64,000 nucleotides of DNA from an uncultured bacterium (GCA_964482725.1 CAYZYT010000008.1:3255-67254); one strand, 5' to 3'; counted from the stretch's first letter, positions 12,396 to 60,566 are shown. Notes: generated by a model from the letters alone, not told the origin. Program-made: numbers and translations.

Positions 12396-12420
12396 GATCG
12401 TTTCCCGGAGGGTTCTCAGA

Positions 12421-31531: not shown

Positions 31532-31612
31532 AGACAAAGATGCATAGACGCACAGAAGCAAAGAATTTTAGAGTTCTAAGGTTCTCTGTTTCTTGTTTCT
31601 TGGCTTCTGCAG
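31532..31612. repeat. AGAAGCAAAGA-rich imperfect palindrome upstream of lnt
   Basis: CAGAAGCAAAGAA ... TTCTTGGCTTCTG. Related words recur at 33170-33360. Confidence 0.45.
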
Positions 31613-31616
31613 TTTC

Positions 31617-33212
31617 ATGAAGCCTTCTGCCGAACGAAGTGTCCCGTATTCCTTTCTTCGCACGCCCTATCTCTATCAAATCGTTTCCGGTCTGCTCCTG
31701 GCGCTCTGCTATCCCTCCACGGGCTGGGGGTTCCTGGCCTGGTTTGCTCTCGTGCCGCTTCTTGCCTCCCTGCATCATGCTCAGAATCATTCTCAGGCCC
31801 TGGGTTTTGGGCTGATCACCGGGATCGTCTTCTTTGTTTTCTCTATTCATTGGCTGACTTATGTGTCGACCGTGGGCTGGCTCCTCGTGGTGCTGATGGA
31901 ATCGGTTTATCTCATGGCGTTCTCGTGGCTCGCGTATCTGGGGATCCGGTCCCCAAAATCCGTCCCCTTCAAGATCTTATGGATCGCGCTTGCGTGGACG
32001 GTGATGGAGATCCTTCGCTCCGAAATGCCGGTGTTCGGCTTCGGATGGAATCTGCTGGCCTATGCCCAGTCTCCTTATGTTTCTCTCATCCAGTTCGCCA
32101 ATGTTCTGGGTTCTTATGGCCTTGGTTTCTTGATCGTGTGTGTGAACGCATCCCTGATGTACGCCTGGTTCAGGCGCAAAGACTGGGGGGTGGCACTGAG
32201 TTTGGTCGCGGTCATTGTTTTGATTTTTGGCGGGCTTTGGAGCTACGGAACTACAGTTCTTGCAAAACCGGCGGCGCCTATGGAATATTTACGTGTCTCC
32301 GTGGTGCAGGGGAATATCCCGCAGTCCGTGAAATGGGAAATCATGGCCAAGGAGAAGATCCTTGAGATTTACGAGAAACTCACCCAGCTCGCGGCGCTTG
32401 AACAGCCGGACTTGATCCTTTGGCCGGAGGCTGCTTTCCCGGGTTATTTCAACCGGGACCTCCAGGCGGAACGGATCTCCCGGCTCGCGCAAGAGATCCA
32501 AACGCCGCTTTTGCTCGGCGGGCTTGAATGGGAAAGTGAAAGAGAATCCTATAACAGTGCTTATTTTCTAAAAAAAGATGGCGCCTCCGGACAGCGTTAC
32601 GACAAGCTTCGGCTGGTTCCCTTCGGAGAATACATTCCGCTCAAAGCTGTTTTTGGATGGCTGACACCGATTGCCGACGCGTTCGGGATCAGTGATTTTA
32701 ACGCCGGGAAAGATCCCGTGGTCTTCCGCTGGGCGCGCGAGGCCTGGCCCTTCGGGGTCCTGATCTGTTTCGAGGACGTCTTTCCGGATCTTGCGCGGGA
32801 GCTTGCGGATCGCGATGCGAAATTCCTTGTTGTGATCACGAATGATGCCTGGTTCGGGAAGACCGGCGCGCCTTTCCAGCATCTTCAGGCCTCGATCTTC
32901 CGTGCGGTGGAAAATGGCGTGGCGGTCATCCGGGCGGCCAATACCGGCGTTTCGGGGTTCATCTCTCATCAAGGGCGCGTCCTTGCAACTCTGAAAGATC
33001 CCAAAGGCGAAGCGACTTTTGTGATGGGGCAGAAGACGCTCGACTTGCCGCTGATCGCGGAGCGGACGCTTTTCCGGCAAGGCGGATTTTTATTTCCGTA
33101 TTTTGCGGTGGCTCTCTTTTTGATCATGGGGTTATTCTTATTCAGAAAAAGGCTCGCTAATGAGAAGCAGAGAATCAAAGAGACAGAGATGCCGAGAGAC
33201 AGAGACGCATAG
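31617..33212 (+). CDS. lnt: apolipoprotein N-acyltransferase
   Basis: N-terminal multi-TM region followed by a CN-hydrolase domain (EAAFPGY, ICFED, NDAWFG). Start could be 31593 or 31617. Confidence 0.85.
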   Translation: MKPSAERSVPYSFLRTPYLYQIVSGLLLALCYPSTGWGFLAWFALVPLLASLHHAQNHSQALGFGLITGIVFFVFSIHWLTYVSTVGWLLVVLMESVYLMAFSWLAYLGIRSPKSVPFKILWIALAWTVMEILRSEMPVFGFGWNLLAYAQSPYVSLIQFANVLGSYGLGFLIVCVNASLMYAWFRRKDWGVALSLVAVIVLIFGGLWSYGTTVLAKPAAPMEYLRVSVVQGNIPQSVKWEIMAKEKILEIYEKLTQLAALEQPDLILWPEAAFPGYFNRDLQAERISRLAQEIQTPLLLGGLEWESERESYNSAYFLKKDGASGQRYDKLRLVPFGEYIPLKAVFGWLTPIADAFGISDFNAGKDPVVFRWAREAWPFGVLICFEDVFPDLARELADRDAKFLVVITNDAWFGKTGAPFQHLQASIFRAVENGVAVIRAANTGVSGFISHQGRVLATLKDPKGEATFVMGQKTLDLPLIAERTLFRQGGFLFPYFAVALFLIMGLFLFRKRLANEKQRIKETEMPRDRDA

Positions 33213-33360
33213 AAACAAAGAAGCCAAGGGGCGTAGAGGTGAAGATGCATAGAAACAAAGAAGCAAAGAGGCATAGAAGCATAGAAAGGAGCAGGATTTT
33301 CTTCTGCTTTTTCTTGAGTCTCTGCTTCTCTGCGTCTTGTGTGTTTTCCGGTTGCGTCCG
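33170..33360. repeat. AGAAGCAAAGA / CATAGAAACAAAGAAGC low-complexity direct and inverted repeats downstream of lnt
   Basis: GCATAGAAACAAAGAAGC occurs three times, with complementary TTCTGCTTTTTCTTG and CTGCTTCTCTGCGTCT arms. Confidence 0.45.
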
Positions 33361-33486
33361 CGTCGGCGCAGGGGCCGGCTATTGGCATACCCACCCGGAC
33401 GGCGGTACGACCGTGAAACAGGCAGGCTTCGACACGGCCCATTTGATTCCCGGGGATTCGACGGCAGGAAAAATTACGGTTTAAAG

Positions 33487-34245
33487 CTAGATCAGGGAAA
33501 GGCCACCGTCGGCAATCACTGTTTGGCCGACGATCCATGAGGATTCGGGGGAGCAGAGGAATGCCACGACGCGCGCAAGGTCTTCGGGCTTTCCGATCCT
33601 GCCGCCCGGAGTTCTTTTTAGCACCTCCGCTTTGAAATCGTCAAAAAACGGGAACATTTTCAACGCGTCCGTATCCACCAACCCGCCTGAGACGCAATTC
33701 ACGCGGATCCCTTTAGGCATCAATTCTACGGCCAAGTAGCGCATCGTGGCTTCGATCGCGGCTTTGGAGATGCCGATGGCGCCGTAATTGGGAATAAAAT
33801 GGTGTGCGCCCAAACTTGAGAGGGCGATGATGATGCCTTCTTTTTTGGCCTCCATGATCGGAAGGGCCTTTTGCGCAAGGGCGAGGAACGCTTTGGCATT
33901 GATGTTCATCGAAAGGTCCCAGTGGTTCATCTTGAGCCGGTGGACGGCTTTGAATGCGCCCAGGGCGGCATTGTGGATCAGGATATCGAGGGTTCCAAAG
34001 GTTTTGAGGATGTCTTCAAAGAGAGCTTTGTGCGAATCGAGGTCTCCGACATTCGCCTGGAATGCGGCAGCTTTCACGCCTTTGGCGAGGAGTTCGTCGA
34101 CCGTTTTCCGGGCAGCGTCTTCATTTTGGAGATAATTGACCGCGATATGGACGCCATCGTCGGCTAAACGGAGGGCGATGGCCCGTCCGATCCCTCGGGA
34201 AGCTCCGGTGATGAGTGCAACTTTGCCTTTCATAGAATTTAGCAT
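33487..34245 (-). CDS. fabL: enoyl-ACP reductase, FabL (ENR III) type SDR
   Basis: Strong similarity to B. subtilis FabL: TGASRGIGRA, WDLSMNINAKAF, and SSLGAHHFIPNYGAIGISKAA (Tyr-x6-Lys) ... YLAVELMPKGIRVNCVSGGLVDTDALKMFP. Confidence 0.8.
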   Translation of the reverse strand: MLNSMKGKVALITGASRGIGRAIALRLADDGVHIAVNYLQNEDAARKTVDELLAKGVKAAAFQANVGDLDSHKALFEDILKTFGTLDILIHNAALGAFKAVHRLKMNHWDLSMNINAKAFLALAQKALPIMEAKKEGIIIALSSLGAHHFIPNYGAIGISKAAIEATMRYLAVELMPKGIRVNCVSGGLVDTDALKMFPFFDDFKAEVLKRTPGGRIGKPEDLARVVAFLCSPESSWIVGQTVIADGGLSLI

Positions 34246-34372
34246 AGTCCCAATACCTTTCAATTTTAACGAAGCGGTCCCAATACCAATCAATCACAGC
34301 TTTCTGTGATTGGCGCCGTCCAAGTCGCCGTCCCAAAAAATAAAGACTTGGACGGAAATTGGGGCAATCCCG
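34246..34372. repeat. intergenic repeat element copy R2 (GCGGTCCCAATACC core, CAATCACAGC/GCTGTGATTG hairpin, GTCCAAGTC/GACTTGGAC hairpin)
   Basis: Aligns with R1 (inverted), R3 and R4. Overlaps the first codons of fabL. Confidence 0.6.
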
Positions 34373-34517
34373 GCAGCCATTGATGATATGAAAATAAATA
34401 CAAGATGGGCGATAAGATAACAGATAATAGAGCAAATCCAAAAGAAAAAAAGATTCTTGGGGCTCCTCGAAGGGCTATGCTATAATTTCCCGCTCAAAAA
34501 CCACAACGAACGAGATC

Positions 34518-35138
34518 GTGAATTCTATCAAGAATTATCTGCAGGTCTTTCAGCGCCGGGTACTGGACGGGATCGTCAAACATTTCGCCCACGGCGCGCT
34601 TGAGGCTCGGGCGGAAAAGATCGTTCAGCTTTTTGAAAATCAGATCCCGAGGGGAAGCCGGATCCTGGATTTGGGAGGCGGGTGGGGTTTTTACGCAGAG
34701 CCTCTCAAAAAGAGAGGGCACGAGCATCTCGTTTTGGACGTCGTGAACCCGGGCTATCAGAAGGCCCCTGTGGTGCTGTATGACGGCCTGAAGATCCCGT
34801 TCCCGGATCAAAGTTTTGATGTCACGATCCTCATGACCATGTTGCACCACGTGCCGGACCCGCAGGCGCTTTTTAAAGAAGTGCTCAGGGTGACGCGCCA
34901 CAAGGTCGTAGTCGTCGAGGATCTCTATTGCCACGCAGCGGGGCGGTTCTGGACCATTTGTAGAGATCGTTTTTTAAATGTAGAGTTCACAACTCATCCG
35001 CACCAGTTCCGTTCGGATGGTGGCTGGCGGGATTTTTTTAAAGCTTCGGGTTTTGAGGTCAGCTCTTTTAAAAGTTTTTATACTTGGCTTTCAGGATTTC
35101 GCATCCTGAATGGTGTTTACGTTTTGGAGAAATCGTAA
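34518..35138 (+). CDS. class I SAM-dependent methyltransferase
   Basis: Motif I ILDLGGGWGFY and post-I acidic residue. GTG start. A TATAAT box lies at about 34477. Confidence 0.75.
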   Translation: MNSIKNYLQVFQRRVLDGIVKHFAHGALEARAEKIVQLFENQIPRGSRILDLGGGWGFYAEPLKKRGHEHLVLDVVNPGYQKAPVVLYDGLKIPFPDQSFDVTILMTMLHHVPDPQALFKEVLRVTRHKVVVVEDLYCHAAGRFWTICRDRFLNVEFTTHPHQFRSDGGWRDFFKASGFEVSSFKSFYTWLSGFRILNGVYVLEKS

Positions 35139-35170
35139 CCAAATGTCATCCCCGCTGGAAGCATTCAGGG

Positions 35171-35602
35171 ATGACAAAGGGAAGATATCGAACGATGACA
35201 CGGCTTGCGATCGAAAAGATACTCTGGATCAAAGAAGGTGAGGGCATTACGGCCTGTGGCCGTATCCCAGAGGATTCCGAATTTTTTAAGGACCATTTCC
35301 CGGGGTTCCCCGTGTTGCCGGGGGTGTTGGCGCTTGAGATGCTTAAGCAGACTGCGGAGCGGTATCTGGCGTCCCTTCCGAGCGGTGAAGGACAGCATTA
35401 TTTCTTGAAGCAGATCCGAGCGACCCGGTTTACGAAATATCTCAGGCCCGGCGATGAATGGGAAAGTCGTCTCATGCTCACGCAAAGCGAGGGAGAGGAA
35501 ACGACCTGGGACGCTAAATTGTTTTATCACGGCGATGTCGCCGTATCGGCCAAGTTGACGTTGGCCAAAGTTAAGAACCCGCAATCATCAGCAGTGTCAT
35601 AG
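35171..35602 (+). CDS. FabA/FabZ-like hotdog 3-hydroxyacyl-ACP dehydratase (DH1)
   Basis: FPGFPVLPGVLALEMLKQ active-site region. Confidence 0.75.
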   Translation: MTKGRYRTMTRLAIEKILWIKEGEGITACGRIPEDSEFFKDHFPGFPVLPGVLALEMLKQTAERYLASLPSGEGQHYFLKQIRATRFTKYLRPGDEWESRLMLTQSEGEETTWDAKLFYHGDVAVSAKLTLAKVKNPQSSAVS

Positions 35603-35624
35603 ACAACTTAGGAAGGACGATAGA

Positions 35625-36038
35625 ATGATCATGGAGAAAGAACTCTTTACGAAAGTTCAGCAAACACTTGCCGGCGCCCTCGGCGTCGATGAGGCGGATA
35701 TCGTGCCGGAAGCTTCCTTGAAGCGGGATCTTGGCGCAGAGTCCATCGATTTCATTGATATCGTTTTCCGTCTTGAGAAGGCGTTTGATCTCAAGATCCC
35801 GGCCGGAGATCTTTTTCCGAGCCATCTTCTGAACGATGAGCGCTTCGTGAAGGAAGGCATGGTCACGCCGGAGGGGCTCGCGGAGCTTCGTACAAAGCTG
35901 CCTTACCTCGAACTCGAAGAATTCACCAAAGATCCTCAGATCACAAAGCTGGCGGATTGTTTTACGGTGAAGATGCTGCTTCGTTATCTGAACGACCGCT
36001 TGGGCAAGAGTTCCTGCGACGATCAATGCTGCTCGTAA
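35625..36038 (+). CDS. acyl carrier protein with unusual C-terminal extension of about 50 aa (ends ...SSCDDQCCS)
   Basis: Phosphopantetheine-site context DLGAESIDFIDIVFRLEKAF. GGAAGGA RBS. 137 aa versus about 80 aa for a typical ACP. Confidence 0.75.
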   Translation: MIMEKELFTKVQQTLAGALGVDEADIVPEASLKRDLGAESIDFIDIVFRLEKAFDLKIPAGDLFPSHLLNDERFVKEGMVTPEGLAELRTKLPYLELEEFTKDPQITKLADCFTVKMLLRYLNDRLGKSSCDDQCCS

Positions 36039-36607
36039 AACAAAAAACCGCCAGCTCAAAACACAGAGCGAGGCTCGCCCCAGCTTCCAATTACAGTCGA
36101 GGGGCGGCCACGCTGTGCGGCGTGGGTGTGGATCTGGTGTCCTGCCACCGCGTGAGGCAATTTCTTTCGCGCCACCGGGATTATGTTCGCGAACGTTTCC
36201 TGAATCCCTCGGAGCGTCGGTCCTTCAAACGTCTTTCCCTCCAAGCCTTTGCGGAACTTTTTACGGCCAAGGAAGCCTTTTTCAAGGCGTGCGGCGAGTC
36301 GTGGATGGGGCTCGAAGGGTTCCAGGGCATGCGGATGAAACGATGCGAGGGTGATCATTTTGAGATGGAATGGCGGACCGGGCGCACCCAGAAGCTCTAT
36401 CGCGGGGAAGGGCATTTTTTCCGAAGCGGGGACCTGGTAGGCGCGCAGGCCATGATCTGGAGATGGAGCCCCACGGCTTTACGATCGCGGTCCCCACATG
36501 TTTTAGCGACATCCCGCCGCCGAAGTATCCACGCCAAAATGCGGCGGGATTATCCCGCGTCTTCATTGCCGGCTTTACAGCCGGTGCCTTCGGCGAAGGC
36601 GGGATAA
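36017..36607 (+). CDS. acpS: holo-ACP synthase (AcpS-type 4'-phosphopantetheinyl transferase); start uncertain (ATG 36017 overlapping the ACP stop, or GTG about 36122)
   Basis: GVGVDLV ... FLNPSERRSF ... FTAKEAFFKACG aligns with the AcpS motifs GIGxDI and FAAKEAxxKAxG. C-terminal extension of about 40 aa is non-conserved. Confidence 0.65.
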   Translation, partial: RRSMLLVKQKTASSKHRARLAPASNYSRGAATLCGVGVDLVSCHRVRQFLSRHRDYVRERFLNPSERRSFKRLSLQAFAELFTAKEAFFKACGESWMGLEGFQGMRMKRCEGDHFEMEWRTGRTQKLYRGEGHFFRSGDLVGAQAMIWRWSPTALRSRSPHVLATSRRRSIHAKMRRDYPASSLPALQPVPSAKAG

Positions 36608-36608
36608 C

Positions 36609-37076
36609 ATGCGCTGGCTTCTTCTTGAAAAAGTCCATTCGATCCACAAGGGAAAAAAGGCCGTTGCTTCTGCGAAGGTTCCCCAAGCTCCTTACAGTTC
36701 GGAAGTTCTTTTTATTGAAATGATGGCGCAGACCGGCGGTCTTTTGGTCGGTGCGGAAAGCGATTACCAAAAAGATCTCATCTTCGCGAAGATCGAATGC
36801 GCGACCATCTCAAAGGTTCCGAAGTCCGGCACCGCGATTCAAATCGAGGCTTGGTCCGAAAGTCTCGGGACCGAAGGAGGTTGGCTTGAGGCGACGATCA
36901 CTTGTGCCGAAGGATTGGTCGCGAGCGCGAAGCTCCTGCTGATGGCCGTGAGCGGACTTTCCGCGGAACAGACGAAGTCCATCACATTCCACGAGGCTTT
37001 CATGAATCATTTTAACGTCCGCGAGAAGATCCTTCCATCCCTGCCTGGCGGGGAGCCCGGCGCAACGCAGGGCTGA
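36609..37076 (+). CDS. second FabZ-like hotdog dehydratase (DH2); possible heterodimer partner of DH1 (ApeI/ApeP-like arrangement)
   Basis: EVLFIEMMAQTGGLL hotdog active-site-like region. 155 aa. Confidence 0.6.
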   Translation: MRWLLLEKVHSIHKGKKAVASAKVPQAPYSSEVLFIEMMAQTGGLLVGAESDYQKDLIFAKIECATISKVPKSGTAIQIEAWSESLGTEGGWLEATITCAEGLVASAKLLLMAVSGLSAEQTKSITFHEAFMNHFNVREKILPSLPGGEPGATQG

Positions 37077-37081
37077 TCTTC

Positions 37082-38368
37082 ATGACCGAAAAACGCCGTG
37101 TTGTGATCACAGGTTTTGGGGTTATCACGCCGTGCGGGAACGGCTGGGAACCTTATTGGGAGGCCGCTCTTCACGGGCGGTCCGCGATCCGAAGTGCCGA
37201 TCCCCTCAAGATGAATTGCCCCTCTTTTAAATATGCCGGGATGCTGTCCGGGTTCGAACCGAAAGAATTTATTGAGAACCGGAAATCCATCAAGTTGATG
37301 TCCCGCGAGATCCAGATGGCGGTTGCGGCAAGTCGTCTGGCGCTTCAGGACGCCAAACTTTCTCCGGAGCATTATGACCCCACGCGGGTTGGCGTCACGC
37401 TCGGCACCGGGATCATCAATAACGATCTCGATGAGATCGGCATGGGCTTTAGGAACGGGCTGGATGAGAACGGGCATTTTTCCATGACCAAGTTCGGGCA
37501 AGAGGGCGTTCGCTCGCTTTTTCCTCTTTGGTTCCTGAAGTATCTTCCGAACATGCCGGCCTGTCATGTCTCCGTTGCGAATCATCTTCGGGGCCCGAAC
37601 AATACCATCACGACGTCCTCCGCGGCGAGCACCCAGGCGATCGGGGAAGCCTACCGTGTGATCGAGCGTGGAGATGCGGATATTATGTTGGCGGGCGGCA
37701 CGGACTCGAAACTTAATGCGATGGGGATCTCACGTTTCCAGCTCCTCGGGCTTCTTTCAACAAGAGAAGCCTCTCCCGAGAAGGTTTACTGTCCTTTTGA
37801 CAAAAAACATGACGGAATAGTCCTGGGCGAAGGTTCGGGGATCCTGGTGCTGGAATCCCTCGCGAGTGCAAAAAAACGCGGGGCCTCGATCTACGCGGAG
37901 ATCGCCGGCTACGGATCTTCCTCTGATTTTAATTATGATCCGCGGGATCCGGATGATTTTACGGGCAAGCGCGTGGCGATTCGCCGGGCGCTTGAAGATG
38001 CCGCGATCGAGCCCGCGGATGTCGATGTTCTTGTGGCGAATGGCAGCGGTATTCCCCAAGAAGATGCTCAGGAGTCGCTCGCGGTCCATTCCTTTTATGC
38101 GTCGACTTTCAAAAAACTTCACGTCACTGCCGTGAAACCTGTGACGGGGAATCTGGTTTACGGGACCGGAAGTATCGAGGCGGTGGTTGCAGCCTTGACC
38201 ACGAAAAAAGGACAAGTGCCGCCGGTCACGAATCTTGAAAATCCGGATCCGGAGTGCTCGCTTCCGTTCGTCAAAGATAAAGCGAAATCTTGCCAAGTCA
38301 ACGTGGCCGTCCTGAACACCTTCGGGCTGGGCGGCCAAAACGCATCCCTGGTGTTTAAAAAATGCTAA
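37082..38368 (+). CDS. ketosynthase-like chain-length-factor (CLF) paralog lacking the catalytic triad
   Basis: KAS fold with TTSSAAS in place of TACxSG (Cys to Ser), ANGSG in place of AHGTS (His to Asn) and TGN in place of GH (His to Asn). Confidence 0.8.
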   Translation: MTEKRRVVITGFGVITPCGNGWEPYWEAALHGRSAIRSADPLKMNCPSFKYAGMLSGFEPKEFIENRKSIKLMSREIQMAVAASRLALQDAKLSPEHYDPTRVGVTLGTGIINNDLDEIGMGFRNGLDENGHFSMTKFGQEGVRSLFPLWFLKYLPNMPACHVSVANHLRGPNNTITTSSAASTQAIGEAYRVIERGDADIMLAGGTDSKLNAMGISRFQLLGLLSTREASPEKVYCPFDKKHDGIVLGEGSGILVLESLASAKKRGASIYAEIAGYGSSSDFNYDPRDPDDFTGKRVAIRRALEDAAIEPADVDVLVANGSGIPQEDAQESLAVHSFYASTFKKLHVTAVKPVTGNLVYGTGSIEAVVAALTTKKGQVPPVTNLENPDPECSLPFVKDKAKSCQVNVAVLNTFGLGGQNASLVFKKC

Positions 38369-39660
38369 AACGTAGAGTGGTCGTCACAGGGATGGGCGCC
38401 GTGACGCCTCTTGGAAATTCCGTGCGTGATACCTGGCTTCGTTTGACGCAGGGGAAGTCGGGGATCGGGCCCATCACGCTCTTTGATGCGAGCCGTTTTC
38501 CGACGCGCATTGCGGCTGAGGTGAAAGGGTTCCAATTCGAGAAATGGCTTGAGCGCAATCCACCGCTTAGTTGCGCGGGCCGGAGCACTTTTTTTGCGCT
38601 TCAGGCCGCAGCGGAAGCCTACAAGGGCGCGAGGCTCGAGCCTCTTGCCGTGAATCCGAATCGCTTTGGTATTTATTTTGGAGCGGGTGACAGCGGGATC
38701 GATTTTGCTCCCTTTATCAAGACCATGGTCGCGTCTTTTACGAAGGAAGGCACGGAGATTGTGGATAAAGGAAAATACCTCCAACATGCCGCCGAGAATA
38801 TGAGCGCTTTGCGAGAGCTTGAAAACCAGCCCTTCATGACCGTGACACATCTGACGCGTCTTTTTGATATACGCGGGCCGGTTTCGAATTGTTTGACGGC
38901 GTGCGCGGCGTCGTCCCAGGCGATCGGGGAGGCTTTTGAATGGATACGGCGCGGGGATGCCGATGTGATGATGGCCGGTGGTTCCCACTCCATGATCTAT
39001 CCGATGGGGGTCGCCGGGTTCAGCTTATTGACGGCTCTTTCCACTCGAAACGATGATCCTGAAAAAGCCTCGAGGCCGTTCGATAAAAAACGGGACGGAT
39101 TTGTGATCGGCGAAGGCGCCGGGGTGCTCATCCTTGAAGATCTGGAACACGCGAGGAAGCGCAAGGCGCCGATCCATGGCGAAGTCGTGGGATATGGCTC
39201 GACCGCGGACGCGTATCGCCTCACGGATATGGACCCGGAAGGCCGTGGCGCGGCGCGCGCTATGGAGATTGCGATGGAAAAAGCTTGCGTTGGGCCTCAA
39301 AATATTGATTATATCAATGCGCACGGCACTTCCACCGCAGTGAATGACTCGCTGGAAACCCTCGTCATCAAAAAAGTGATGGGCGATTGTGCTCCGAAGA
39401 TCCCGGTCAGCTCGACCAAATCCATGCTCGGGCATATGATCGCGGCGGCCGGCGGGGTTGAAGCAATTATTTGTTTGATGGCCATGCGCGATTCGATGAT
39501 CCCGCCGACGATCAATTATGAAGAACCGGATCCTGAGTGCGATCTGGATTATGTGCCGAACACGGCGCGGCGCTCGGGCGTGAATTTGGCGCTTTCGAAC
39601 TCGTTCGGGTTCGGGGGGCAGAACATTTGTTTAGCTTTAAGGAGATATGATGGCGCATAA
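38362..39660 (+). CDS. beta-ketoacyl-ACP synthase (FabF-like KS) with intact Cys-His-His triad
   Basis: CLTACAASSQAIGEA, YINAHGTSTAVND and SSTKSMLGHMIAAAG. Overlaps the CLF gene by 7 nt. Confidence 0.85.
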   Translation: MLKRRVVVTGMGAVTPLGNSVRDTWLRLTQGKSGIGPITLFDASRFPTRIAAEVKGFQFEKWLERNPPLSCAGRSTFFALQAAAEAYKGARLEPLAVNPNRFGIYFGAGDSGIDFAPFIKTMVASFTKEGTEIVDKGKYLQHAAENMSALRELENQPFMTVTHLTRLFDIRGPVSNCLTACAASSQAIGEAFEWIRRGDADVMMAGGSHSMIYPMGVAGFSLLTALSTRNDDPEKASRPFDKKRDGFVIGEGAGVLILEDLEHARKRKAPIHGEVVGYGSTADAYRLTDMDPEGRGAARAMEIAMEKACVGPQNIDYINAHGTSTAVNDSLETLVIKKVMGDCAPKIPVSSTKSMLGHMIAAAGGVEAIICLMAMRDSMIPPTINYEEPDPECDLDYVPNTARRSGVNLALSNSFGFGGQNICLALRRYDGA

Positions 39661-40744
39661 CTTGATTTTTATGACCGGTGCGACCGGTGTGTTGGGGCAG
39701 GACCTTGTGAAGGAATTGCTCCGGACCACGAACGCAGAAATTGCGCTCCTGGCCCGTGCGAAAAACCGCGCCACCCATTCGGACCGGGTCAAAAAGATCC
39801 TTACTTCGATTGGTATCGATTCTCATCTGGGTTCCCGCGTCCATGTGATCGAAGGGGATGTGACGCATCATAAATTCGGCATCAAAAAAGCCGACCTCGA
39901 AACTCTGGAGCGTGAGTGCAAGGTGTTCTATCACATCGCAGCGCTTACGGCTTTGAACGGGACGGAGAAGGAATGCCAGCAGATCAATGTGGGAGGCACC
40001 GAGCACGCTTTGGAGCTGGCCTGGGACCTTCGTAAAAAAGGAAAACTCGAGCGGTTCATCTATTTCAGCACGGCGTTCGTCGCCGGAAGCGTGTGGGACC
40101 ATTGTTCTAAGGAAGATGAGCTTCCGGCCAAGCCTGTGTTTGCGAACTATTACGAGTCGAGCAAATACAAGGCCGAGACCAAAGTTCGCGAGGCGATGGC
40201 CAAGGGACTTCCGGTCACGATCATTCGTCCGAGCATCGTGGTGGGGCATTCGGAGACCGGCGTGGTCTCGGATTTCAATGTGATCTACCCTTTCATCAAG
40301 CTCTTCGCTCACGGAGTGCTTTCCAAGATCCCCACGCATCGTGAGAACACGTTCAATATTGTGCCCATTGATTTTGTGATCCAGGCGACCTGCGCGATCG
40401 TCAAGGACCCGCGGAGCATCAATAAGGCTTTTCATGTGGTAGCGCCCAAACCGCCTTCGATCGGCATGCTCCTTAGGGTGGGGGAAGAGGAATATTCGGC
40501 CATCCCTCCGATCGAGGTGATCGATCCCCTGCACTTCAAAAAAAACAAGATGGGCGCGCAGGAGCAAATGGTCTTCGCGATGCTGGAGCCTTATCTGGGA
40601 TATTTGAACGGGCGCCTCACCTTCGATACTTCCAATACGCGTGAGATCCTACGCGGCACCGGGATCCCGATGCCAAAAACCGATCATGCTTTTCTCAAGA
40701 CCCTGATCCGTTATGCCGTTAAGGTCGGGTACCTAGCCATTTAA
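39647..40744 (+). CDS. stand-alone thioester reductase / fatty-acyl reductase (NAD_binding_4, 'male sterility' family)
   Basis: FMTGATGVLGQDL Rossmann motif and YYESSKYKAE (YxxxK). 365 aa. Overlaps the KS gene stop. Confidence 0.75.
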   Translation: MMAHNLIFMTGATGVLGQDLVKELLRTTNAEIALLARAKNRATHSDRVKKILTSIGIDSHLGSRVHVIEGDVTHHKFGIKKADLETLERECKVFYHIAALTALNGTEKECQQINVGGTEHALELAWDLRKKGKLERFIYFSTAFVAGSVWDHCSKEDELPAKPVFANYYESSKYKAETKVREAMAKGLPVTIIRPSIVVGHSETGVVSDFNVIYPFIKLFAHGVLSKIPTHRENTFNIVPIDFVIQATCAIVKDPRSINKAFHVVAPKPPSIGMLLRVGEEEYSAIPPIEVIDPLHFKKNKMGAQEQMVFAMLEPYLGYLNGRLTFDTSNTREILRGTGIPMPKTDHAFLKTLIRYAVKVGYLAI

Positions 40745-40785
40745 AATTGTTGTTATCGTCATTCAACTATCCAAGGGGTCCCACA

Positions 40786-41115
40786 ATGAAAAGAGCTATA
40801 GCTTCGATCTTGATTTTGGCAGTGCTGAGTTTCTGGATCCCTTGCGCGTGCGCGGAGATCTCTCAGGATCTGGATCCGATGGTGCCTGTGGATGCGCAAG
40901 CGACTGTGGTGGAAGAAGCCTCGATGAATGGTGCCTCGACCGGCCAGGTCAGTAACGTGGTGAGCACCGCGGATGCAACGGTTGGCGAGAAGAAAAAAGT
41001 AGAAGAGACGAAGCATGCGAAGTCGAAAAAGTCCTCAAAAAAGAAATCTTCCGAAAAGAAAAACAAGAAGTCTGGTCCCCAGAAGTCCAAGGCGAGCAAG
41101 AAAAGCTCTAGTTAA
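40786..41115 (+). CDS. small secreted Lys/Ser-rich protein, hypothetical
   Basis: Signal peptide MKRAIASILILAVLSFWIPCACA, then a KKSSKKKSSEKKNKK low-complexity tail. AAGGGG RBS. Confidence 0.5.
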   Translation: MKRAIASILILAVLSFWIPCACAEISQDLDPMVPVDAQATVVEEASMNGASTGQVSNVVSTADATVGEKKKVEETKHAKSKKSSKKKSSEKKNKKSGPQKSKASKKSSS

Positions 41116-41179
41116 AGATCTCTGACAGAATGAAGCTTACCCTCCCCACAAAAGCAGGGATCCGGGGAGTGGATTCCCG

Positions 41180-41235
41180 ACCGGTCCGAAGCGCGGTATT
41201 GGGAATGGCGTTTTGTTGGAAATTCTAGGAACCGT
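41180..41235. repeat. degenerate copy R4 of the GCGGTCCCAATACC repeat family (inverted)
   Basis: GGTCCGAAGCGCGGTATTGGGAATGGCG. Its reverse complement matches the CGAAGCGGTCCCAATACC core region. Confidence 0.4.
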
Positions 41236-41319
41236 TTGCTTTCATAAAGCGTTGCTTTGGGTTCGTCCCCGGGGTAACGCTTTATTTATTAAAACGATCG
41301 GTGACTGTCTCTATTGCTT

Positions 41320-42486
41320 TTATCGCCAGTGGGTCTGGCGCCTGAAGCAGGCCATTTGAAAGGCGTCGAAAAGAATGGCTGTGAAGATGAGCGCCGCGAG
41401 CGGGTGCAGGAGCGCGTAACGTTTCCTGGATTTGACGATCCCATAGGCCGTGAACGCAGTAGCGAAAATGATCCCAAGGATCAAGAAACAAAGAAACAGC
41501 GAAAGATTTGATTGGCCCGGGAGCATGATCAAGACCGCGAACGGGAAGACGGAAAAGAAGAAAACGCTCAGAGCGCATTTCAGGATCGGCGCCGGTCTTT
41601 GATCGAAAGCGTGAAGGTAGATCCGACGCCAACCCCGCCAAAGGGCGTCAAAAGAATCGTACATCCGCGTGCCGTAGACGTCCATGCCAAATGCGGACAT
41701 GCTTCGCGCGCCGATTTCCTTCGTTTTTTTCATCAACGCAAAGTCCTCGAGGAATGCTTCCTTTACGGCATCGTGCCCGCCGATCTTCCGGTAATGGTCC
41801 GCGCGCAGCAACAGGTATTGTCCGTTCCCGAAATAGACCTTCGACTTTGGATCATTGATCTTTCGGATGGGGAACCACAGCCCCATATAGCTCATGGCGC
41901 AGGGCTGAATAAGAAGTTCCCAAAAACCGTGGGCGAGACAGCGGGGCAGGAGCGTTAAAAGATCAAGTTTGTTCGCCTCCGCGAAGGTCAAGGAGGCATC
42001 CACGCTGCCGGGTTCGTGGCGAGTATCCGCATCCGTGAAGAGAAGCCAGTCGCCCGAGGCGTGCTCGATCCCGAGATGGAGCGCGAAATTCTTACCGGTC
42101 CATCCTTTCGGGGTAGGGGGTGTGTTGAGGTATCCGAAAAAAGGAGTAGGCAGGTTTTCCCTCAAAGCCAACCTTTCCTCTTTAATTTCCATGGCGCCTA
42201 GTTCCTTTAAAATCGCCTCAGTGCGGTCCGTGGAACAATTATTGATGACGATGATCTCGTCACCGTTTCGGAGCTGGGTGAGGAACGGCCTGACGCAATC
42301 CGCGATGTTTTTCTCTTCATTCTTGGCGGGAATGAGGATCGAGACTTTGCCTTGGCGGGAGACAGGTGCTGTGAGCTTCAACGTGGGGGCTTGTTTGATT
42401 TCGGATAACGAACGCCAACTGCGATAAATCCAGCCGGCCAGCAGAAATACGAGAATTAAGAAAACAATAGGGGCAGGGATCTCCAT
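41320..42486 (-). CDS. membrane-embedded family-2 glycosyltransferase (N-terminal TM, GT-A domain, C-terminal TM bundle)
   Basis: ILIPAKNEE, LFTDADT (DxD) and a C-terminal hydrophobic region. Architecture resembles lipid-directed GT2/GT21 enzymes. Confidence 0.75.
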   Translation of the reverse strand: MEIPAPIVFLILVFLLAGWIYRSWRSLSEIKQAPTLKLTAPVSRQGKVSILIPAKNEEKNIADCVRPFLTQLRNGDEIIVINNCSTDRTEAILKELGAMEIKEERLALRENLPTPFFGYLNTPPTPKGWTGKNFALHLGIEHASGDWLLFTDADTRHEPGSVDASLTFAEANKLDLLTLLPRCLAHGFWELLIQPCAMSYMGLWFPIRKINDPKSKVYFGNGQYLLLRADHYRKIGGHDAVKEAFLEDFALMKKTKEIGARSMSAFGMDVYGTRMYDSFDALWRGWRRIYLHAFDQRPAPILKCALSVFFFSVFPFAVLIMLPGQSNLSLFLCFLILGIIFATAFTAYGIVKSRKRYALLHPLAALIFTAILFDAFQMACFRRQTHWR

Positions 42487-58964: not shown

Positions 58965-59777
58965 ATGTCGGATTGGAATGATCTGAAACGGACTGTGTCG
59001 GTGCGGTCATGGCTGAAAGATTTCGGGACCGGTTGCCTGGACATCTTTCAAGGCGCTGGCGGCATTGCGCTTCTTTTTAGGGACGCCTGTGTTTTATTGA
59101 CCTCCAAAAAGATCCGTTGGAAGGCGACGCTCGACCAGATGAATAAGATCGGCGTCCAGTCGCTCCCCCTGGTTTTCCTTACGGCGTTCTTTACGGGCAT
59201 GGTCCTGGCCTTACAATCGGCTTATCAGTTAAAACTTTTTTCTGCGGAGAAATTTACGGCCGATCTGATCTCGGTTTCGCTTTGCCGTGAGCTCGGCCCG
59301 GTGCTGACGGCTATGGTGGTGGCGGGTCGGGTGGGGGCTTCCATTGCTGCGGAGCTTGGGACTATGAAGGTGACCGAGCAGATTGATGCTCTGAAGTCGC
59401 TTGCCATGAATCCTGTTCAATATCTTGTGGTTCCGAGGTTTATCGCGGCGTTGTTTATGCTTTTTTTGCTGACGATCTATGCGGATGTGATCGGAATGTT
59501 CGGGGGGTATCTGATCTCTGTTTTCAAGCTTGGGATGAGTTCTCATATGTACATCAAACGAGGGATCGATGCGTTGGTGGTCAAGGATGTCGTGACCGGT
59601 CTCATCAAGGCTTTTTTCTTTGGGGGGATCATTTCGGTCGTGGGATGTTATTTCGGGTTTACGGCTCGCGGAGGAGCCGAAGGCGTGGGGCGAGCCACCA
59701 CGCTCGCGGTCGTGGTTTCTCTTATCATGGTCATTGCTTCAGACGCTCTTTTTTCTGCGATCTTTTATTTTTTCTAA
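58965..59777 (+). CDS. mlaE: phospholipid ABC transporter permease MlaE
   Basis: MlaE-family multi-TM pattern. Confidence 0.8.
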   Translation: MSDWNDLKRTVSVRSWLKDFGTGCLDIFQGAGGIALLFRDACVLLTSKKIRWKATLDQMNKIGVQSLPLVFLTAFFTGMVLALQSAYQLKLFSAEKFTADLISVSLCRELGPVLTAMVVAGRVGASIAAELGTMKVTEQIDALKSLAMNPVQYLVVPRFIAALFMLFLLTIYADVIGMFGGYLISVFKLGMSSHMYIKRGIDALVVKDVVTGLIKAFFFGGIISVVGCYFGFTARGGAEGVGRATTLAVVVSLIMVIASDALFSAIFYFF

Positions 59778-59795
59778 ACGAAAGAACGGTACTTT

Positions 59796-60566
59796 GTGAT
59801 CAAGATCCAAGGCATTCACAAGTGGTTCGGACCGCATCATGTCTTGCGGGGGGTCGACCTGACCATCAAGGAAGGGGAGACGATCGTGATCATCGGTCGT
59901 TCGGGATGCGGGAAGAGCGTCCTTTTGAAACATATTATGGCGATTCTGGAGCCTGATGAAGGGGATATCCAGATCGACGGACGCTCCATGTTCTCCATGC
60001 TTCCGGACGAGCAGGATCAGTGCCGGTTGCAACTCGGGATGCTTTTTCAGGGGGCGGCTCTTTTTGATTCTCTGACGGTCCTGGAGAATGTCGGCTTTTC
60101 GCTTTTTGAACACACCCGTCTTACCGAAGAAGTGATCAGTCAAAAAGTTTTTGAGAAACTGCGCATGGTGGGGCTCGAAGGGATCGAGGATCTGATGCCG
60201 GCCAGCCTTTCAGGGGGCATGAAAAAAAGAGTGGGTTTGGCGCGGGCGATTTGCAATGAGCCGAAGATCATTCTTTACGATGAACCCACGACGGGCCTTG
60301 ATCCGATCAACGCGGATGTTATTAACGAGCTTATCTTGAGAATGCAGAAGCAACTCAAAGTGGTTTCGATCGTGGTGACCCACGACATGACAAGCGCGTA
60401 CAAAGTGGCGGACCGGATCGCCATGCTTTACGAAGGGCGGATCATTGGTATCGGAACACCCGAGGAGATCAGGAATTCCCCCGATCCGGTCATTCAGCAA
60501 TTCATTACCGGATCGGCGCGGGGCCCGATCACGGATAAGCAGCAAAAGGAGACGGAGTCATTATGA
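59796..60566 (+). CDS. mlaF: phospholipid ABC transporter ATP-binding protein MlaF
   Basis: Walker A GRSGCGKS, signature LSGGMKKRVGLARA, and Walker B ILYDEPTTGLD. Confidence 0.85.
   Translation: MIKIQGIHKWFGPHHVLRGVDLTIKEGETIVIIGRSGCGKSVLLKHIMAILEPDEGDIQIDGRSMFSMLPDEQDQCRLQLGMLFQGAALFDSLTVLENVGFSLFEHTRLTEEVISQKVFEKLRMVGLEGIEDLMPASLSGGMKKRVGLARAICNEPKIILYDEPTTGLDPINADVINELILRMQKQLKVVSIVVTHDMTSAYKVADRIAMLYEGRIIGIGTPEEIRNSPDPVIQQFITGSARGPITDKQQKETESL

What the first reader, a model, noticed from the sequence alone, without database searches (positions are those of the whole stretch)
33487..42486. Type II FAS/PKS-like lipid cluster with a triad-less chain-length-factor KS and a terminal thioester reductase
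Ten co-oriented, overlapping genes encode a dedicated carrier-protein pathway. On the + strand these are a SAM methyltransferase, hotdog DH1, a long ACP, an AcpS-type PPTase, hotdog DH2, a CLF and a KS. A divergent FabL-type enoyl reductase sits on one side. A stand-alone thioester reductase, a Lys-rich secreted peptide and a membrane GT2 sit on the other. The CLF has lost all three catalytic residues, which I read directly from the translation, while the adjacent KS is intact. That pairing is the hallmark of KS/CLF heterodimers that set chain length. The gene families overlap those of aryl-polyene (Ape) clusters: paired DHs, KS+CLF, ACP, a methyltransferase and a GT. The differences are the enoyl reductase, which implies a saturated chain; the reductive release enzyme, which implies an aldehyde or alcohol product; a dedicated PPTase; and the absence of the Ape exporter and LolA-like genes. 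A fatty-alcohol glycoside, loosely analogous to heterocyst glycolipids but made by a type II system, is one hypothesis. I do not recognise this exact architecture as a described pathway.
Basis: partly seen in the sequence, partly recalled or inferred. Interest (0 to 1): 0.8.

Follow-up and report, generated by a model that had tools for sequence, protein, structure and literature searches.

The report
Omnitrophota lipid cluster with reductive release
This is a real, tightly packed gene cluster, conserved across the uncultured phylum Omnitrophota, that looks like a dedicated fatty-acid-type assembly line ending in a reductase and a membrane sugar-transferase; it probably makes an undescribed envelope lipid, but no product has been shown.

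Summary
Window 33487-42486 encodes a FabL-type enoyl reductase (-), then on the + strand a methyltransferase, a FabZ/ApeI-like dehydratase, a 137-aa ACP, an AcpS-type PPTase, a His-less hotdog protein, a FabF paralogue with Ser/Asn/Asn in place of Cys/His/His, an intact FabF-like KS, a stand-alone thioester reductase and a small secreted protein, followed by a convergent membrane GT2.

The window comes from Candidatus Omnitrophota. In 19 species-level genomes the same block recurs: MT 16/16, ACP 16/16, FabL 15/16, GT2 14/15. Outside the window's own clade an MMPL/HAE3 exporter follows the GT2.

A core of FabL, GT2, DH, the long ACP, the degenerate-His DH (class B has substitutions or keeps the His; only class A deletes the segment), the inactive KS and the KS also occurs in other Omnitrophota and in Planctomycetota, including cultured Kolteria novifilia. 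There it carries different tailoring genes.

The best reading is a dedicated type II FAS-like module with a KS/inactive-KS pair. Its acyl-ACP is released reductively as an aldehyde or alcohol, then probably glycosylated and exported. This matches heterocyte glycolipid synthesis in function but not in architecture.

The product is unproven. The cluster is a new variant of a known kind; the closest precedents are the anammox amxFabF heterodimer and aryl-polyene clusters. I found no characterisation of it.

The parts
33487..34245 (-). FabL-type enoyl-ACP reductase (SDR), divergent from the operon
   Evidence: Best match is NCBIfam FabL NF005975, 315.5 bits (cut-off 328); the next family scores 212 bits. 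The Tyr-x6-Lys motif NYGAIGISK is read from the translation. The gene was called as 252 aa on the identical contig L001. It is adjacent in 15/16 class A loci, and in class B it lies beside the GT2, where a separate FabG-like KR also exists.
34518..35138 (+). Class I SAM methyltransferase, first gene of the operon; substrate unknown
   Evidence: Methyltransf_11 E 4e-14. There are only weak hits to named families: DVU_1556 at 43 bits against a cut-off of 155, and BioC at E 2.8e-5. It is present in 16/16 class A loci and absent from class B.
35195..35602 (+). DH1: FabZ/ApeI-like 3-hydroxyacyl-ACP dehydratase with catalytic His and Glu
   Evidence: PF07977 E 1.8e-11 and FabZ NF000582 E 1.7e-17. 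Precomputed Pfam hits on orthologues include ApeI-like PF22818. The His/Glu pair is kept in 30/33 homologues.
35625..36038 (+). Dedicated 137-aa ACP with a conserved insertion of about 48 residues before helix IV
   Evidence: The PP-binding domain covers residues 10-64 only. PDB ACPs align to residues 3-65. The insertion is conserved across Omnitrophota and Planctomycetota. An AF2 model (pLDDT 85.7) shows the ACP core plus extra elements.
36026..36607 (+). AcpS-type 4'-phosphopantetheinyl transferase. The conserved core runs from about 36116; the C-terminal tail of about 47 aa is absent from most relatives
   Evidence: PF01648 E 8e-14. Gene call on L001. Relatives align to the first ~116 residues only. 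Present in 15/16 class A loci.
36609..37076 (+). DH2: hotdog-fold partner that lacks the catalytic His segment but keeps the Glu
   Evidence: No Pfam hit; weak FabZ hit at E 2.5e-7. The AF2 model matches FabZ structures (TMt ~0.70) and also ApeI:P 6qsr_B. An 11-residue deletion removes the HFPG motif in class A, while the Glu is retained.
37082..38368 (+). Inactive FabF paralogue (CLF-like): Ser180/Asn320/Asn357 in place of Cys/His/His
   Evidence: Alignment with E. coli FabF. Its best solved relatives are true FabFs (279 bits), not actinorhodin KS-beta (166 bits). Orthologues show S/A-N-K-H/N. The most conserved segment (LKYLPNMP region, residues ~112-162) lies in the dimer-interface helix-loop-helix region.
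38362..39660 (+). Active FabF-type ketosynthase, overlapping the CLF gene by 7 nt
   Evidence: Cys/His/Lys/His are intact. TIGR03150 fabF scores 493.4 bits against a cut-off of 493.75. It forms one clade with the KS partners of all class A/B loci, and its topology parallels the CLF clade.
39647..40744 (+). Stand-alone thioester reductase, overlapping the KS gene by 14 nt
   Evidence: PF07993 E 2.5e-56; TIGR01746 173 bits (cut-off 213); PRK07201 E 4.4e-46. The best solved relative is the myxalamid terminal reductase MxaA 4u7w, E 2.5e-30. The motifs GATGVLG and YESSK are read from the translation. It follows the KS in 19 of 34 loci that have the core.
40747..41115 (+). Small secreted Lys/Ser-rich protein (a likelier start is ATG 40786); probably not a core component
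   Evidence: No family hit. A signal-peptide-like N-terminus is visible in the translation. It is found only in L005, L006, L009 and L010, at 37-63% identity.
41320..42486 (-). Membrane GT2 glycosyltransferase (HpnB/CruG/GT21-like), convergent with the operon
   Evidence: PF00535 E 2.7e-20 and PF13506 (the ceramide glucosyltransferase family) E 3.3e-9. HpnB scores 137 bits and CruG 119 bits, both far below their cut-offs. It lies downstream in 14/15 class A loci and next to FabL in class B.

Best explanation
The cluster is a dedicated type II fatty-acid-synthase-like module that is vertically conserved in Omnitrophota.

Proposed mechanism:
1. A private ACP carrying a ~48-residue insertion is activated by its own AcpS-type PPTase.
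2. Chains are extended by a heterodimer of the intact FabF-type KS and the inactive FabF paralogue. The inactive subunit shapes the acyl tunnel and so sets chain length. By analogy with anammox amxFabFhet, the pair may self-prime by decarboxylating malonyl-ACP.
3. Dehydration is done by an asymmetric FabZ-type pair: DH1 supplies the His and DH2 supplies only the Glu.
4. The FabL-type enzyme reduces the enoyl intermediate, so the chain is largely saturated.
5. The ketoreductase and the malonyl transferase are borrowed from the housekeeping FAS.
6. The finished acyl-ACP is not hydrolysed. The stand-alone thioester reductase releases it as a fatty aldehyde or alcohol.
7. The membrane GT2 then most likely glycosylates this lipid alcohol. 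In most Omnitrophota an adjacent MMPL/HAE3 transporter exports the product to the envelope.
8. The methyltransferase modifies the primer, the chain or the head group; which one is unknown.

Shown here: the domain identities, the loss of catalytic residues, the gene order and the co-conservation. Inferred: the heterodimers, the use of trans-acting KR and MAT, the reductive release, the glycosylation and the envelope destination.
For: - Domain identities.
- Triad loss in the first KS and an intact second KS.
- Overlapping CLF/KS and KS/TR genes.
- DH2 has a hotdog fold, lacks the His and keeps the Glu.
- ACP insertion conserved in two phyla.
- Co-conservation in 19 Omnitrophota species genomes (MT 16/16, ACP 16/16, FabL 15/16, PPTase 15/16, GT2 14/15).
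- MMPL/HAE3 next to the GT2 in 10 loci.
- An aldo-keto reductase upstream in about half of the distant loci, which would fit aldehyde-to-alcohol reduction.
- In the class B variant a separate FabG-like KR coexists with the FabL-like SDR. The SDR is therefore the ER, and the GT2 and FabL travel with the core.
- The KS and CLF clades have parallel topologies.
- The closest solved TR is MxaA, an alcohol-forming terminal reductase.
- Precedents: amxFabF2/amxFabFmut form a KS/CLF-like heterodimer that decarboxylates malonyl-ACP (bioRxiv 10.64898/2026.05.19.726425). The hgl island combines KS, CLF, ACP, KR, DH, ER, thioester reductase, PPTase, GT and an exporter to make fatty-alcohol glycosides (PMC11804610).
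- FabH, FabD and FabG KOs are listed for Omnitrophota nodes in Seymour et al. supplementary data (PMC10066038).
Against: - No product, expression data or biochemistry exists for this cluster.
- No KR, MAT or initiating KS is present in the cluster, so it cannot work alone.
- The GT2 is far below the cut-offs of every named family (HpnB 137/379, CruG 119/600), and its acceptor is unknown. It sits on the opposite strand and could serve another pathway.
- In the window's own clade the exporter and the aldo-keto reductase are not adjacent.
- One class A locus (L011) has neither FabL nor GT2 nearby.
- The PPTase is AcpS-type, the KS scores at the FabF equivalog threshold, and FabL is a primary-metabolism ER. 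This is what a housekeeping FAS would look like.
- Whether the TR stops at the aldehyde or goes on to the alcohol cannot be read from the sequence.
Confidence: 0.5

Rival explanations
1. The block is the organism's housekeeping FAS II elongation module (FabF, FabZ, FabL, ACP, AcpS), in which the elongating KS happens to be heterodimeric. It would feed phospholipid, lipid A and lipoprotein acylation, and the TR would be only a side branch.
For: - The KS scores 493.4 against the 493.75 cut-off of the fabF equivalog, the SDR is nearest FabL, and the PPTase is AcpS-type.
- The locus is fixed next to RF2-SecA-Lnt across the phylum.
- No second fab locus is seen in the 64 kb window.
Against: - The ACP, DH1 and AcpS all score below their equivalog cut-offs, and the ACP carries a 48-residue insertion.
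- DH2 and the CLF are degenerate.
- The TR overlaps the KS and is present in all class A loci.
- No fabD, fabG, fabH or plsX lies nearby.
- Homologous cores in Planctomycetota (class B, e.g. Kolteria novifilia Pan216). I did not look for a canonical FabF in that genome. From the literature, the planctomycete Rhodopirellula baltica carries several fabB/F paralogues alongside Cys-less ones (PMC2649909).
- amxACP-dependent enzymes in anammox bacteria do not use the canonical ACP (PMC10139942).
Confidence: 0.15
2. The module makes fatty aldehyde or alcohol as a precursor of alkyl (ether) glycerolipids or wax-type lipids, in the way ElbD does in myxobacteria. On this reading the neighbouring GT2 makes a head group or is unrelated.
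For: - A stand-alone TR follows the KS.
- ElbD-homologue hits were reported in 93/267 Black Sea Omnitrophota MAGs (PMC11868695). These could be this TR.
- A fatty-acid desaturase-family gene follows the TR in L004, L012 and L014.
Against: - No alkyl-DHAP synthase, acyltransferase or glycerol-phosphate enzyme is in the cluster or in its conserved flanks.
- ElbD's ligase, ACP and AGPAT domains are absent.
- The GT2 and MMPL are the conserved neighbours.
Confidence: 0.2
3. It is a true aryl-polyene or flexirubin-type pigment cluster: an APE family member that makes a conjugated polyene anchored in the outer membrane.
For: - The gene families overlap: MT, a DH pair with ApeI-like Pfam hits, a KS plus inactive KS, ACP, GT2, and MMPL in relatives.
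- The DH2 model also matches ApeI:P 6qsr_B.
- The GT2 resembles the carotenoid glycosyltransferase CruG.
Against: - There is no aryl-activating AMP ligase, thioesterase, LPLAT or LolA-like gene.
- A conserved enoyl reductase would destroy conjugation.
- Release is reductive rather than by acyl transfer.
- The CLF and KS are closer to FabF than to any solved PKS KS.
- The DH2 model ranks FabZ structures well above ApeI:P.
Confidence: 0.05
4. It is a ladderane-type cluster, as antiSMASH-style rules may label it.
For: - The order of inactive FabF immediately upstream of active FabF, with a private ACP and a FabZ, mirrors anammox Cluster I.
- 'Ladderane' BGCs were reported in Omnitrophota MAGs (PMC9902471).
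Against: - No B12-radical SAM enzyme or phytoene-dehydrogenase homologue is in the cluster or among the window ORFs scanned.
- The CLF is closer to canonical FabFs (279 bits) than to chains 9s5h_B/C (219 and 175 bits). I take 9s5h to be the anammox heterodimer, but I did not verify that entry.
- Ladderanes are known only from anammox bacteria.
Confidence: 0.01

Closest known systems
Anammox 'Cluster I' amxFabF2/amxFabFmut with amxACP and amxFabZ (Kuenenia KustE3603-3608)
   Same: Both come from the PVC superphylum. In both, an inactive FabF paralogue is encoded immediately upstream of an active one, alongside a private ACP with an unusual structural element and a FabZ-type dehydratase. The amx heterodimer has been shown experimentally to behave as a KS/CLF pair and to decarboxylate malonyl-ACP (bioRxiv 10.64898/2026.05.19.726425).
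   Different: - The substitutions differ: Val/Thr with Asn/Glu/Cys in anammox, against Ser/Ala with Asn and His/Asn here.
- This cluster has no radical-SAM or phytoene-dehydrogenase genes.
- This cluster has a second His-less DH, its own PPTase, FabL, MT, TR and GT2.
- The window CLF scores higher against canonical FabFs than against 9s5h chains, so it is not an orthologue.
Aryl polyene (Ape) clusters of Gram-negative bacteria
   Same: Both use discrete type II proteins: a KS/CLF pair (ApeO/ApeC), a dehydratase heteropair (ApeI/ApeP), an ACP, a methyltransferase, a GT2 and an MMPL exporter (the exporter in Omnitrophota relatives only).
   Different: This cluster has no aryl-AMP ligase, in-cluster KR, thioesterase, acyltransferases or LolA-like protein. 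It adds an enoyl reductase, a PPTase and a thioester reductase. Its product is therefore expected to be saturated and reductively released, not a conjugated acyl pigment.
Heterocyte glycolipid (hgl) island of cyanobacteria
   Same: The functional inventory is the same: KS, CLF, ACP, DH, ER, thioester reductase, PPTase, glycosyltransferase and a dedicated exporter. The hgl products are fatty-alcohol glycosides deposited in the envelope (PMC11804610).
   Different: The hgl enzymes are large multidomain type I/PUFA-like synthases with in-cluster AT and KR, the exporter is ABC/DevBCA-type, and the phylum is different. No sequence-level orthology was tested or is implied. The resemblance is one of logic only.
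Class B variant of the same core in Omnitrophota and Planctomycetota (e.g. Kolteria novifilia Pan216, NZ_CP036279 6.25-6.27 Mb)
   Same: These loci hold homologous FabL-like SDR, GT2, DH1, the insertion-bearing ACP, DH2, the inactive KS and the KS, in the same order.
   Different: They have a dedicated KR and a hexapeptide transferase, and no MT or TR. Downstream lie HAD, a class-III aminotransferase, an AMP-binding protein and an LPG_synthase_TM protein, or an alpha/beta hydrolase and GH3 in Kolteria. The CLF residues are A-S/C/A-K-F or E-T-K-Q. This variant is also uncharacterised.

Membership tests
Type II aromatic PKS KS-alpha/KS-beta (CLF) | The CLF carries Gln at the active-site Cys position, for malonyl decarboxylation | tested here: not met
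   The position is Ser180 here, and Ser/Ala/Thr in orthologues.
Type II aromatic PKS KS-alpha/KS-beta (CLF) | Closest sequence relatives are PKS KS/CLF proteins | tested here: not met
   The best solved matches are FabFs (279 bits). Actinorhodin KS-alpha scores 190, KS-beta 166 and Iga11 173.
KS/CLF-type heterodimer in general | A catalytically dead KS paralogue is encoded adjacent to, and co-evolves with, an intact KS | tested here: met
   The genes overlap by 7 nt. The triads are S/N/N against C/H/H. The pairing is kept in 34 loci, and the two clades have parallel topologies.
KS/CLF-type heterodimer in general | A physical heterodimer that controls chain length | not testable with these tools
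   This needs co-purification, a structure or product analysis. It is supported only by analogy with amxFabFhet.
Aryl polyene (Ape) cluster | Aryl-carboxylate activating ligase (ApeH) and thioesterase/acyltransferases | tested here: not met
   None of the eleven cluster genes has an AMP-binding, thioesterase or LPLAT domain, and none is found in conserved class A flanks.
Aryl polyene (Ape) cluster | ApeI/ApeP-type dehydratase heteropair | tested here: inconclusive
   DH1 orthologues carry precomputed ApeI-like PF22818 hits. The DH2 model matches ApeI:P 6qsr_B, but only at rank 48, behind the FabZ structures.
Aryl polyene (Ape) cluster | No enoyl reduction, so that a conjugated polyene is kept | tested here: not met
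   A FabL-type ER is conserved with the cluster in 15/16 class A loci and in class B.
Anammox ladderane-candidate Cluster I | B12-dependent radical SAM enzyme and phytoene-dehydrogenase homologue in the cluster | tested here: not met
   No such domains occur in the cluster or in the window ORFs scanned.
Anammox ladderane-candidate Cluster I | An inactive FabF immediately upstream of an active FabF, with a private ACP and FabZ | tested here: met
   Gene order, compared with the paper's description.
Thioester reductase (PF07993 / TIGR01746) | NAD(P)-binding Rossmann motif, a Ser/Thr-Tyr-Lys triad and a family score above threshold | tested here: met
   PF07993 scores 191 bits against a cut-off of 20.1. 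The motifs GATGVLG and YESSK are present. TIGR01746 scores 173 bits, below its 213 cut-off. The best solved match is MxaA.
FabL enoyl-ACP reductase | Equivalog score and the Tyr-x6-Lys catalytic spacing | tested here: inconclusive
   The score of 315.5 bits is just below the 328 cut-off, but it is 100 bits above any other family. The Tyr-x6-Lys motif is present.
Housekeeping FAS II operon | Canonical ~78-aa AcpP with neighbouring fabD, fabG, fabH or plsX | tested here: not met
   The ACP is 137 aa with an insertion and scores below its equivalog cut-offs. No fabD/G/H or plsX is found in the window or in class A flanks.
Heterocyte glycolipid (hgl) island | Multidomain HglE/HglB-type synthases and the HglT glycosyltransferase | not tested
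   Only the functional inventory was compared, using PMC11804610. No sequence comparison with the Hgl proteins was run.

The most novel reading that the evidence does not exclude
The cluster may make a signature envelope lipid of Omnitrophota: a reductively released, methyl-modified long-chain alcohol or aldehyde, probably glycosylated and exported by an HAE3 transporter. Together with its class B relatives it may also define a PVC-wide lineage of heterodimeric fatty-acid synthases. That lineage would combine an active and a dead FabF, an active and a His-less FabZ, and an insertion-bearing ACP, and would be distinct from both APE and anammox systems. If so, the product would be a candidate environmental biomarker for a widespread uncultured phylum. 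The core would also be genetically testable in cultured Kolteria novifilia.
Probability: 0.3. Interest if true: 0.75.

Novelty: new variant of a known kind. Interest (0 to 1): 0.6.

Why it matters
Omnitrophota are widespread, mostly ultra-small and uncultured, and their lipids are unknown. This cluster sits at a fixed housekeeping locus (RF2-SecA-Lnt) and is kept across species that share only about 45-60% identity in its proteins. It is therefore more likely to make a core envelope component than a sporadic secondary metabolite.

It extends the recent finding that fatty-acid-type synthases can use a chain-length-factor-like dead subunit from anammox bacteria to two further PVC lineages. It adds two parallel features: a His-less dehydratase partner, and an ACP family with a conserved insertion.

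It also gives a concrete candidate for the 'ladderane' and 'ElbD-like' hits that automated surveys have reported in Omnitrophota MAGs. A related core in the cultured planctomycete Kolteria novifilia makes the question experimentally approachable.

Tried and rejected
- **DH2 homologue search.** It returned only close Omnitrophota relatives because of the word-index limit, so it said nothing about distribution outside the phylum.
- **Cluster-member look-up for distant CLF representatives.** It gave no taxonomy.
- **ACP homologue search.** It found 3903 hits, but the 120 listed are all Omnitrophota.
- **PDB sequence searches for the GT2 and the MT.** They gave only generic GT-A and SAM-motif matches, with no functional clue.
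- **Literature searches.** Searches for an Omnitrophota lipid or FAS cluster, for KS/CLF with a thioester reductase, and for a planctomycete CLF found no characterisation.
- **Supplement searches.** They showed only that FabH, FabD, FabG, AcpP and AcpS KOs are listed for Omnitrophota nodes. They could not show whether a second canonical FabF or ACP exists.
- **BioC-like priming by the MT.** I considered this, but the BioC hit is only 24 bits against a cut-off of 185. It is kept as speculation.
- **TR as HpnA or CerR.** Rejected: the HpnA hit is 64 bits against a cut-off of 368, whereas the PF07993/TIGR01746 hits are strong.
- **Promoter and terminator scan.** It gave nothing above shuffle expectation that was worth using.

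Full report
**What is there**

ORF listing and Pfam/NCBIfam scans confirm eleven genes between 33487 and 42486.

| Coordinates | Strand | Product | Main evidence |
|---|---|---|---|
| 33487-34245 | - | FabL-type SDR | NF005975 315.5 bits, cut-off 328; next family 212 bits; Tyr-x6-Lys motif NYGAIGISK |
| 34518-35138 | + | Class I SAM methyltransferase | Methyltransf_11 |
| 35195-35602 | + | DH1, FabZ/ApeI-like dehydratase | His and Glu present |
| 35625-36038 | + | ACP, 137 aa | PP-binding, GAESID |
| ~36026-36607 | + | AcpS-type PPTase | PF01648 |
| 36609-37076 | + | DH2, 155 aa | No Pfam hit; weak FabZ hit only |
| 37082-38368 | + | KS-like protein | ketoacyl-synt N and C |
| 38362-39660 | + | FabF-like KS | TIGR03150 493.4 bits against cut-off 493.75 |
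| 39647-40744 | + | Stand-alone thioester reductase | PF07993 E 2.5e-56; best solved relative MxaA, |
| 40747-41115 | + | Small secreted Lys-rich protein | No family hit |
| 41320-42486 | - | Membrane GT2 | PF00535 and PF13506; weak HpnB/CruG similarity |

CLF/KS overlap by 7 nt and KS/TR by 14 nt. The other junctions are 1-56 nt apart. This is one operon flanked by a divergent and a convergent gene.

**The inactive ketosynthase**

Aligned with E. coli FabF, the first KS-like protein has Ser180, Asn320 and Asn357 at the Cys, His and His positions; the Lys is kept. The second KS has all four residues.

Among the 118 close orthologues aligned of the 120 listed, the patterns are S-N-K-H (71), S-N-K-N (27) and A-N-K-H (14). 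Loss of Cys and of the first His is therefore universal. Loss of the second His is specific to the window's own clade.

The protein is not a Gln-type CLF. Its best solved relatives are true FabFs (279 bits), not actinorhodin KS-beta (166 bits).

Its most conserved segment is residues ~112-162, which include the LKYLPNMP motif used for the genome scan. This segment carries an insertion relative to E. coli FabF. It falls in the helix-loop-helix region that, in the anammox amxFabFmut subunit, lines the acyl tunnel of the active partner.

**The second dehydratase and the ACP**

An AlphaFold model of DH2 (pLDDT 81.7) has a hotdog fold. It matches FabZ structures at TM about 0.70 and, lower in the list, the ApeI:P heterocomplex. 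In class A orthologues an 11-residue deletion removes the HFPG His motif, while the Glu of the central helix is kept. DH1 keeps both residues. FabZ active sites are built from the His of one subunit and the Glu of the other (established knowledge). A DH1:DH2 heterodimer with a single active site is therefore the natural reading.

The ACP aligns to canonical ACPs only over residues 3-65. It then carries a ~48-residue insertion before helix IV. The insertion is conserved in sequence across Omnitrophota and Planctomycetota and is modelled with confidence (pLDDT 85.7).

**Source and conservation**

Homologues are named Candidatus Omnitrophota.

Context look-ups were run for orthologues with 57-60% identity. 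A scan of one genome per GTDB species used a CLF alignment. I then ran tblastn with all window proteins against the 84 loci. These steps separate three classes of locus.

- **Class A** (19 Omnitrophota species genomes). The order is RF2-SecA-Lnt-(aldo-keto reductase)-FabL(-)-MT-DH1-ACP-PPTase-DH2-CLF-KS-TR-(desaturase)-GT2(-)-MMPL. The counts are MT 16/16, ACP 16/16, FabL 15/16, PPTase 15/16 and GT2 14/15. An MMPL/HAE3 transporter lies next to the GT2 in 10 loci. These are all the lineages outside the window's own clade that have enough flanking sequence.
- **Class B** (other Omnitrophota and Planctomycetota, including the complete genome of Kolteria novifilia Pan216). It keeps FabL, GT2, DH1, the long ACP, DH2, a degenerate KS (A-S/C/A-K-F or E-T-K-Q) and the KS. 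It has its own FabG-like KR and a hexapeptide transferase, and no MT or TR. Downstream are a HAD protein, a class-III aminotransferase, an AMP-binding protein and an LPG_synthase_TM protein.
- **Class C.** FabF-like proteins of Planctomycetia with Glu or Asp at the Cys position, mostly without an adjacent KS.

A neighbour-joining tree places all the active partners in one clade and all the degenerate partners in another, with parallel topologies. The tree has no bootstrap support and only an E. coli outgroup. It suggests an old duplication and co-evolution of the pair.

**How it most likely works**

The steps below are inferred unless stated otherwise.

1. The private ACP is activated by the cluster PPTase.
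2. The KS/dead-KS heterodimer extends the chain. It may self-prime, as shown for amxFabFhet, which decarboxylates malonyl-ACP to give acetyl- and acetoacetyl-ACP.
3. DH1:DH2 dehydrates the intermediate and FabL reduces it. In class B a separate KR sits beside the FabL-like SDR, which argues that the SDR is the ER.
4. The KR and the MAT act in trans. FabG, FabD and FabH KOs are listed for Omnitrophota nodes in Seymour et al. supplementary data.
5. The TR overlaps the KS and has intact GATGVLG and YESSK motifs. It releases the chain as an aldehyde or alcohol. An aldo-keto reductase in about half of the distant loci would fit a two-step reduction.
6. The GT2 belongs to the membrane lipid-glycosylating group (GT21/HpnB/CruG-like, but below every cut-off). 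With the HAE3 transporter, it suggests a glycosylated lipid alcohol that is exported to the envelope.

The hgl island of cyanobacteria provides a proven precedent for exactly this inventory: KS, CLF, ACP, KR, DH, ER, thioester reductase, PPTase, GT and exporter. It makes fatty-alcohol glycosides (PMC11804610). Its enzymes are multidomain and I claim no orthology.

**Rivals**

- **Housekeeping FAS module.** This reading is favoured by the FabF-like score, the AcpS-type PPTase, FabL and the fixed locus. It is disfavoured by the atypical ACP, the degenerate partners, the obligatory TR and the absence of fabD/G/H nearby. It was not excluded, because I could not scan whole Omnitrophota genomes.
- **Ether-lipid or wax precursor pathway.** ElbD-like hits were reported in 93/267 Omnitrophota MAGs (PMC11868695). 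However, no glycerol-lipid enzymes are conserved nearby.
- **True APE pigment cluster.** It fails on the aryl ligase, the thioesterase and acyltransferases, and the conserved ER.
- **Ladderane cluster.** It fails on the radical SAM and phytoene-dehydrogenase genes.

**Novelty**

I found no characterisation of this cluster.

Related facts are known. Cys-less FabF paralogues were noted in Kuenenia and Rhodopirellula in 2009 (PMC2649909). The anammox pair was shown to be a KS/CLF-like heterodimer in 2026. antiSMASH 'ladderane' BGCs were reported as present and expressed in Omnitrophota MAGs, with unknown function (PMC9902471). It is plausible, but unverified, that those are this locus.

I therefore rate it a new variant of a known kind. 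The principle (a type II synthase with a dead KS partner) is established. The combination with a His-less DH partner, an insertion-bearing ACP, reductive release, a GT2 and an HAE3 exporter is not described. Neither is its phylum-wide conservation in Omnitrophota.

Noticed in passing
window 11619-13647 (-): An alpha-oxoamine synthase at 12421-13647 has serine palmitoyltransferase (CFB type) as its best NCBIfam hit: 447 bits against a cut-off of 640. BioF scores 407/426 and Kbl 400/460. It is directly followed by an SDR at 11619-12461. This could be a serine palmitoyltransferase plus 3-ketosphinganine reductase pair, or an ordinary Kbl/BioF.
   Followed up: partly
L039-L084 (Planctomycetia loci): A large family of FabF-like proteins has Glu or Asp at the active-site Cys position (mostly E-H-K-N). 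Most have no adjacent intact KS. They form a sister group to the cluster's CLF clade. R. baltica RB3714 and RB4527 of this kind were noted in PMC2649909.
   Followed up: partly
L023, L024, L027-L030, L032, L033, L035 (class B loci); L034 = Kolteria novifilia Pan216: A variant of the same core has a hexapeptide transferase, a dedicated KR, a HAD phosphatase, a class-III aminotransferase, an AMP-binding protein and an LPG_synthase_TM protein in place of MT and TR. This suggests a different, possibly amino-modified, lipid from a homologous synthase.
   Followed up: partly
window 33239-33484 (+): An 81-aa ORF with a lipobox-like VFSGC lies between Lnt and the FabL gene. Weakly similar small ORFs sit at the same position in L002, L004 and L010.
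   Followed up: no
window ~36464-36607 (+): The PPTase ORF carries a C-terminal extension of about 47 residues, rich in Arg, Ser and Pro. Most relatives lack it and align only to the first ~116 residues. It could be real or a frame artefact.
   Followed up: no
window 53-5854 (+): A 1933-aa protein has only a weak metallo-beta-lactamase-fold hit. It is typical of the giant ORFs reported for Omnitrophota.
   Followed up: no
L004 13656-16337; L012, L014: A fatty-acid desaturase-family gene (and, in L004, a 516-aa protein with no family hit) is inserted between the TR and the GT2 in three Omnitrophota lineages. This implies lineage-specific desaturation or hydroxylation of the product.
   Followed up: no
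window 58965-61294 (+): MlaE, MlaF-like ABC ATPase and MlaD genes, together with Lnt at 31593-33212, indicate a diderm envelope with lipid trafficking. This is relevant to where an exported lipid would go.
   Followed up: no
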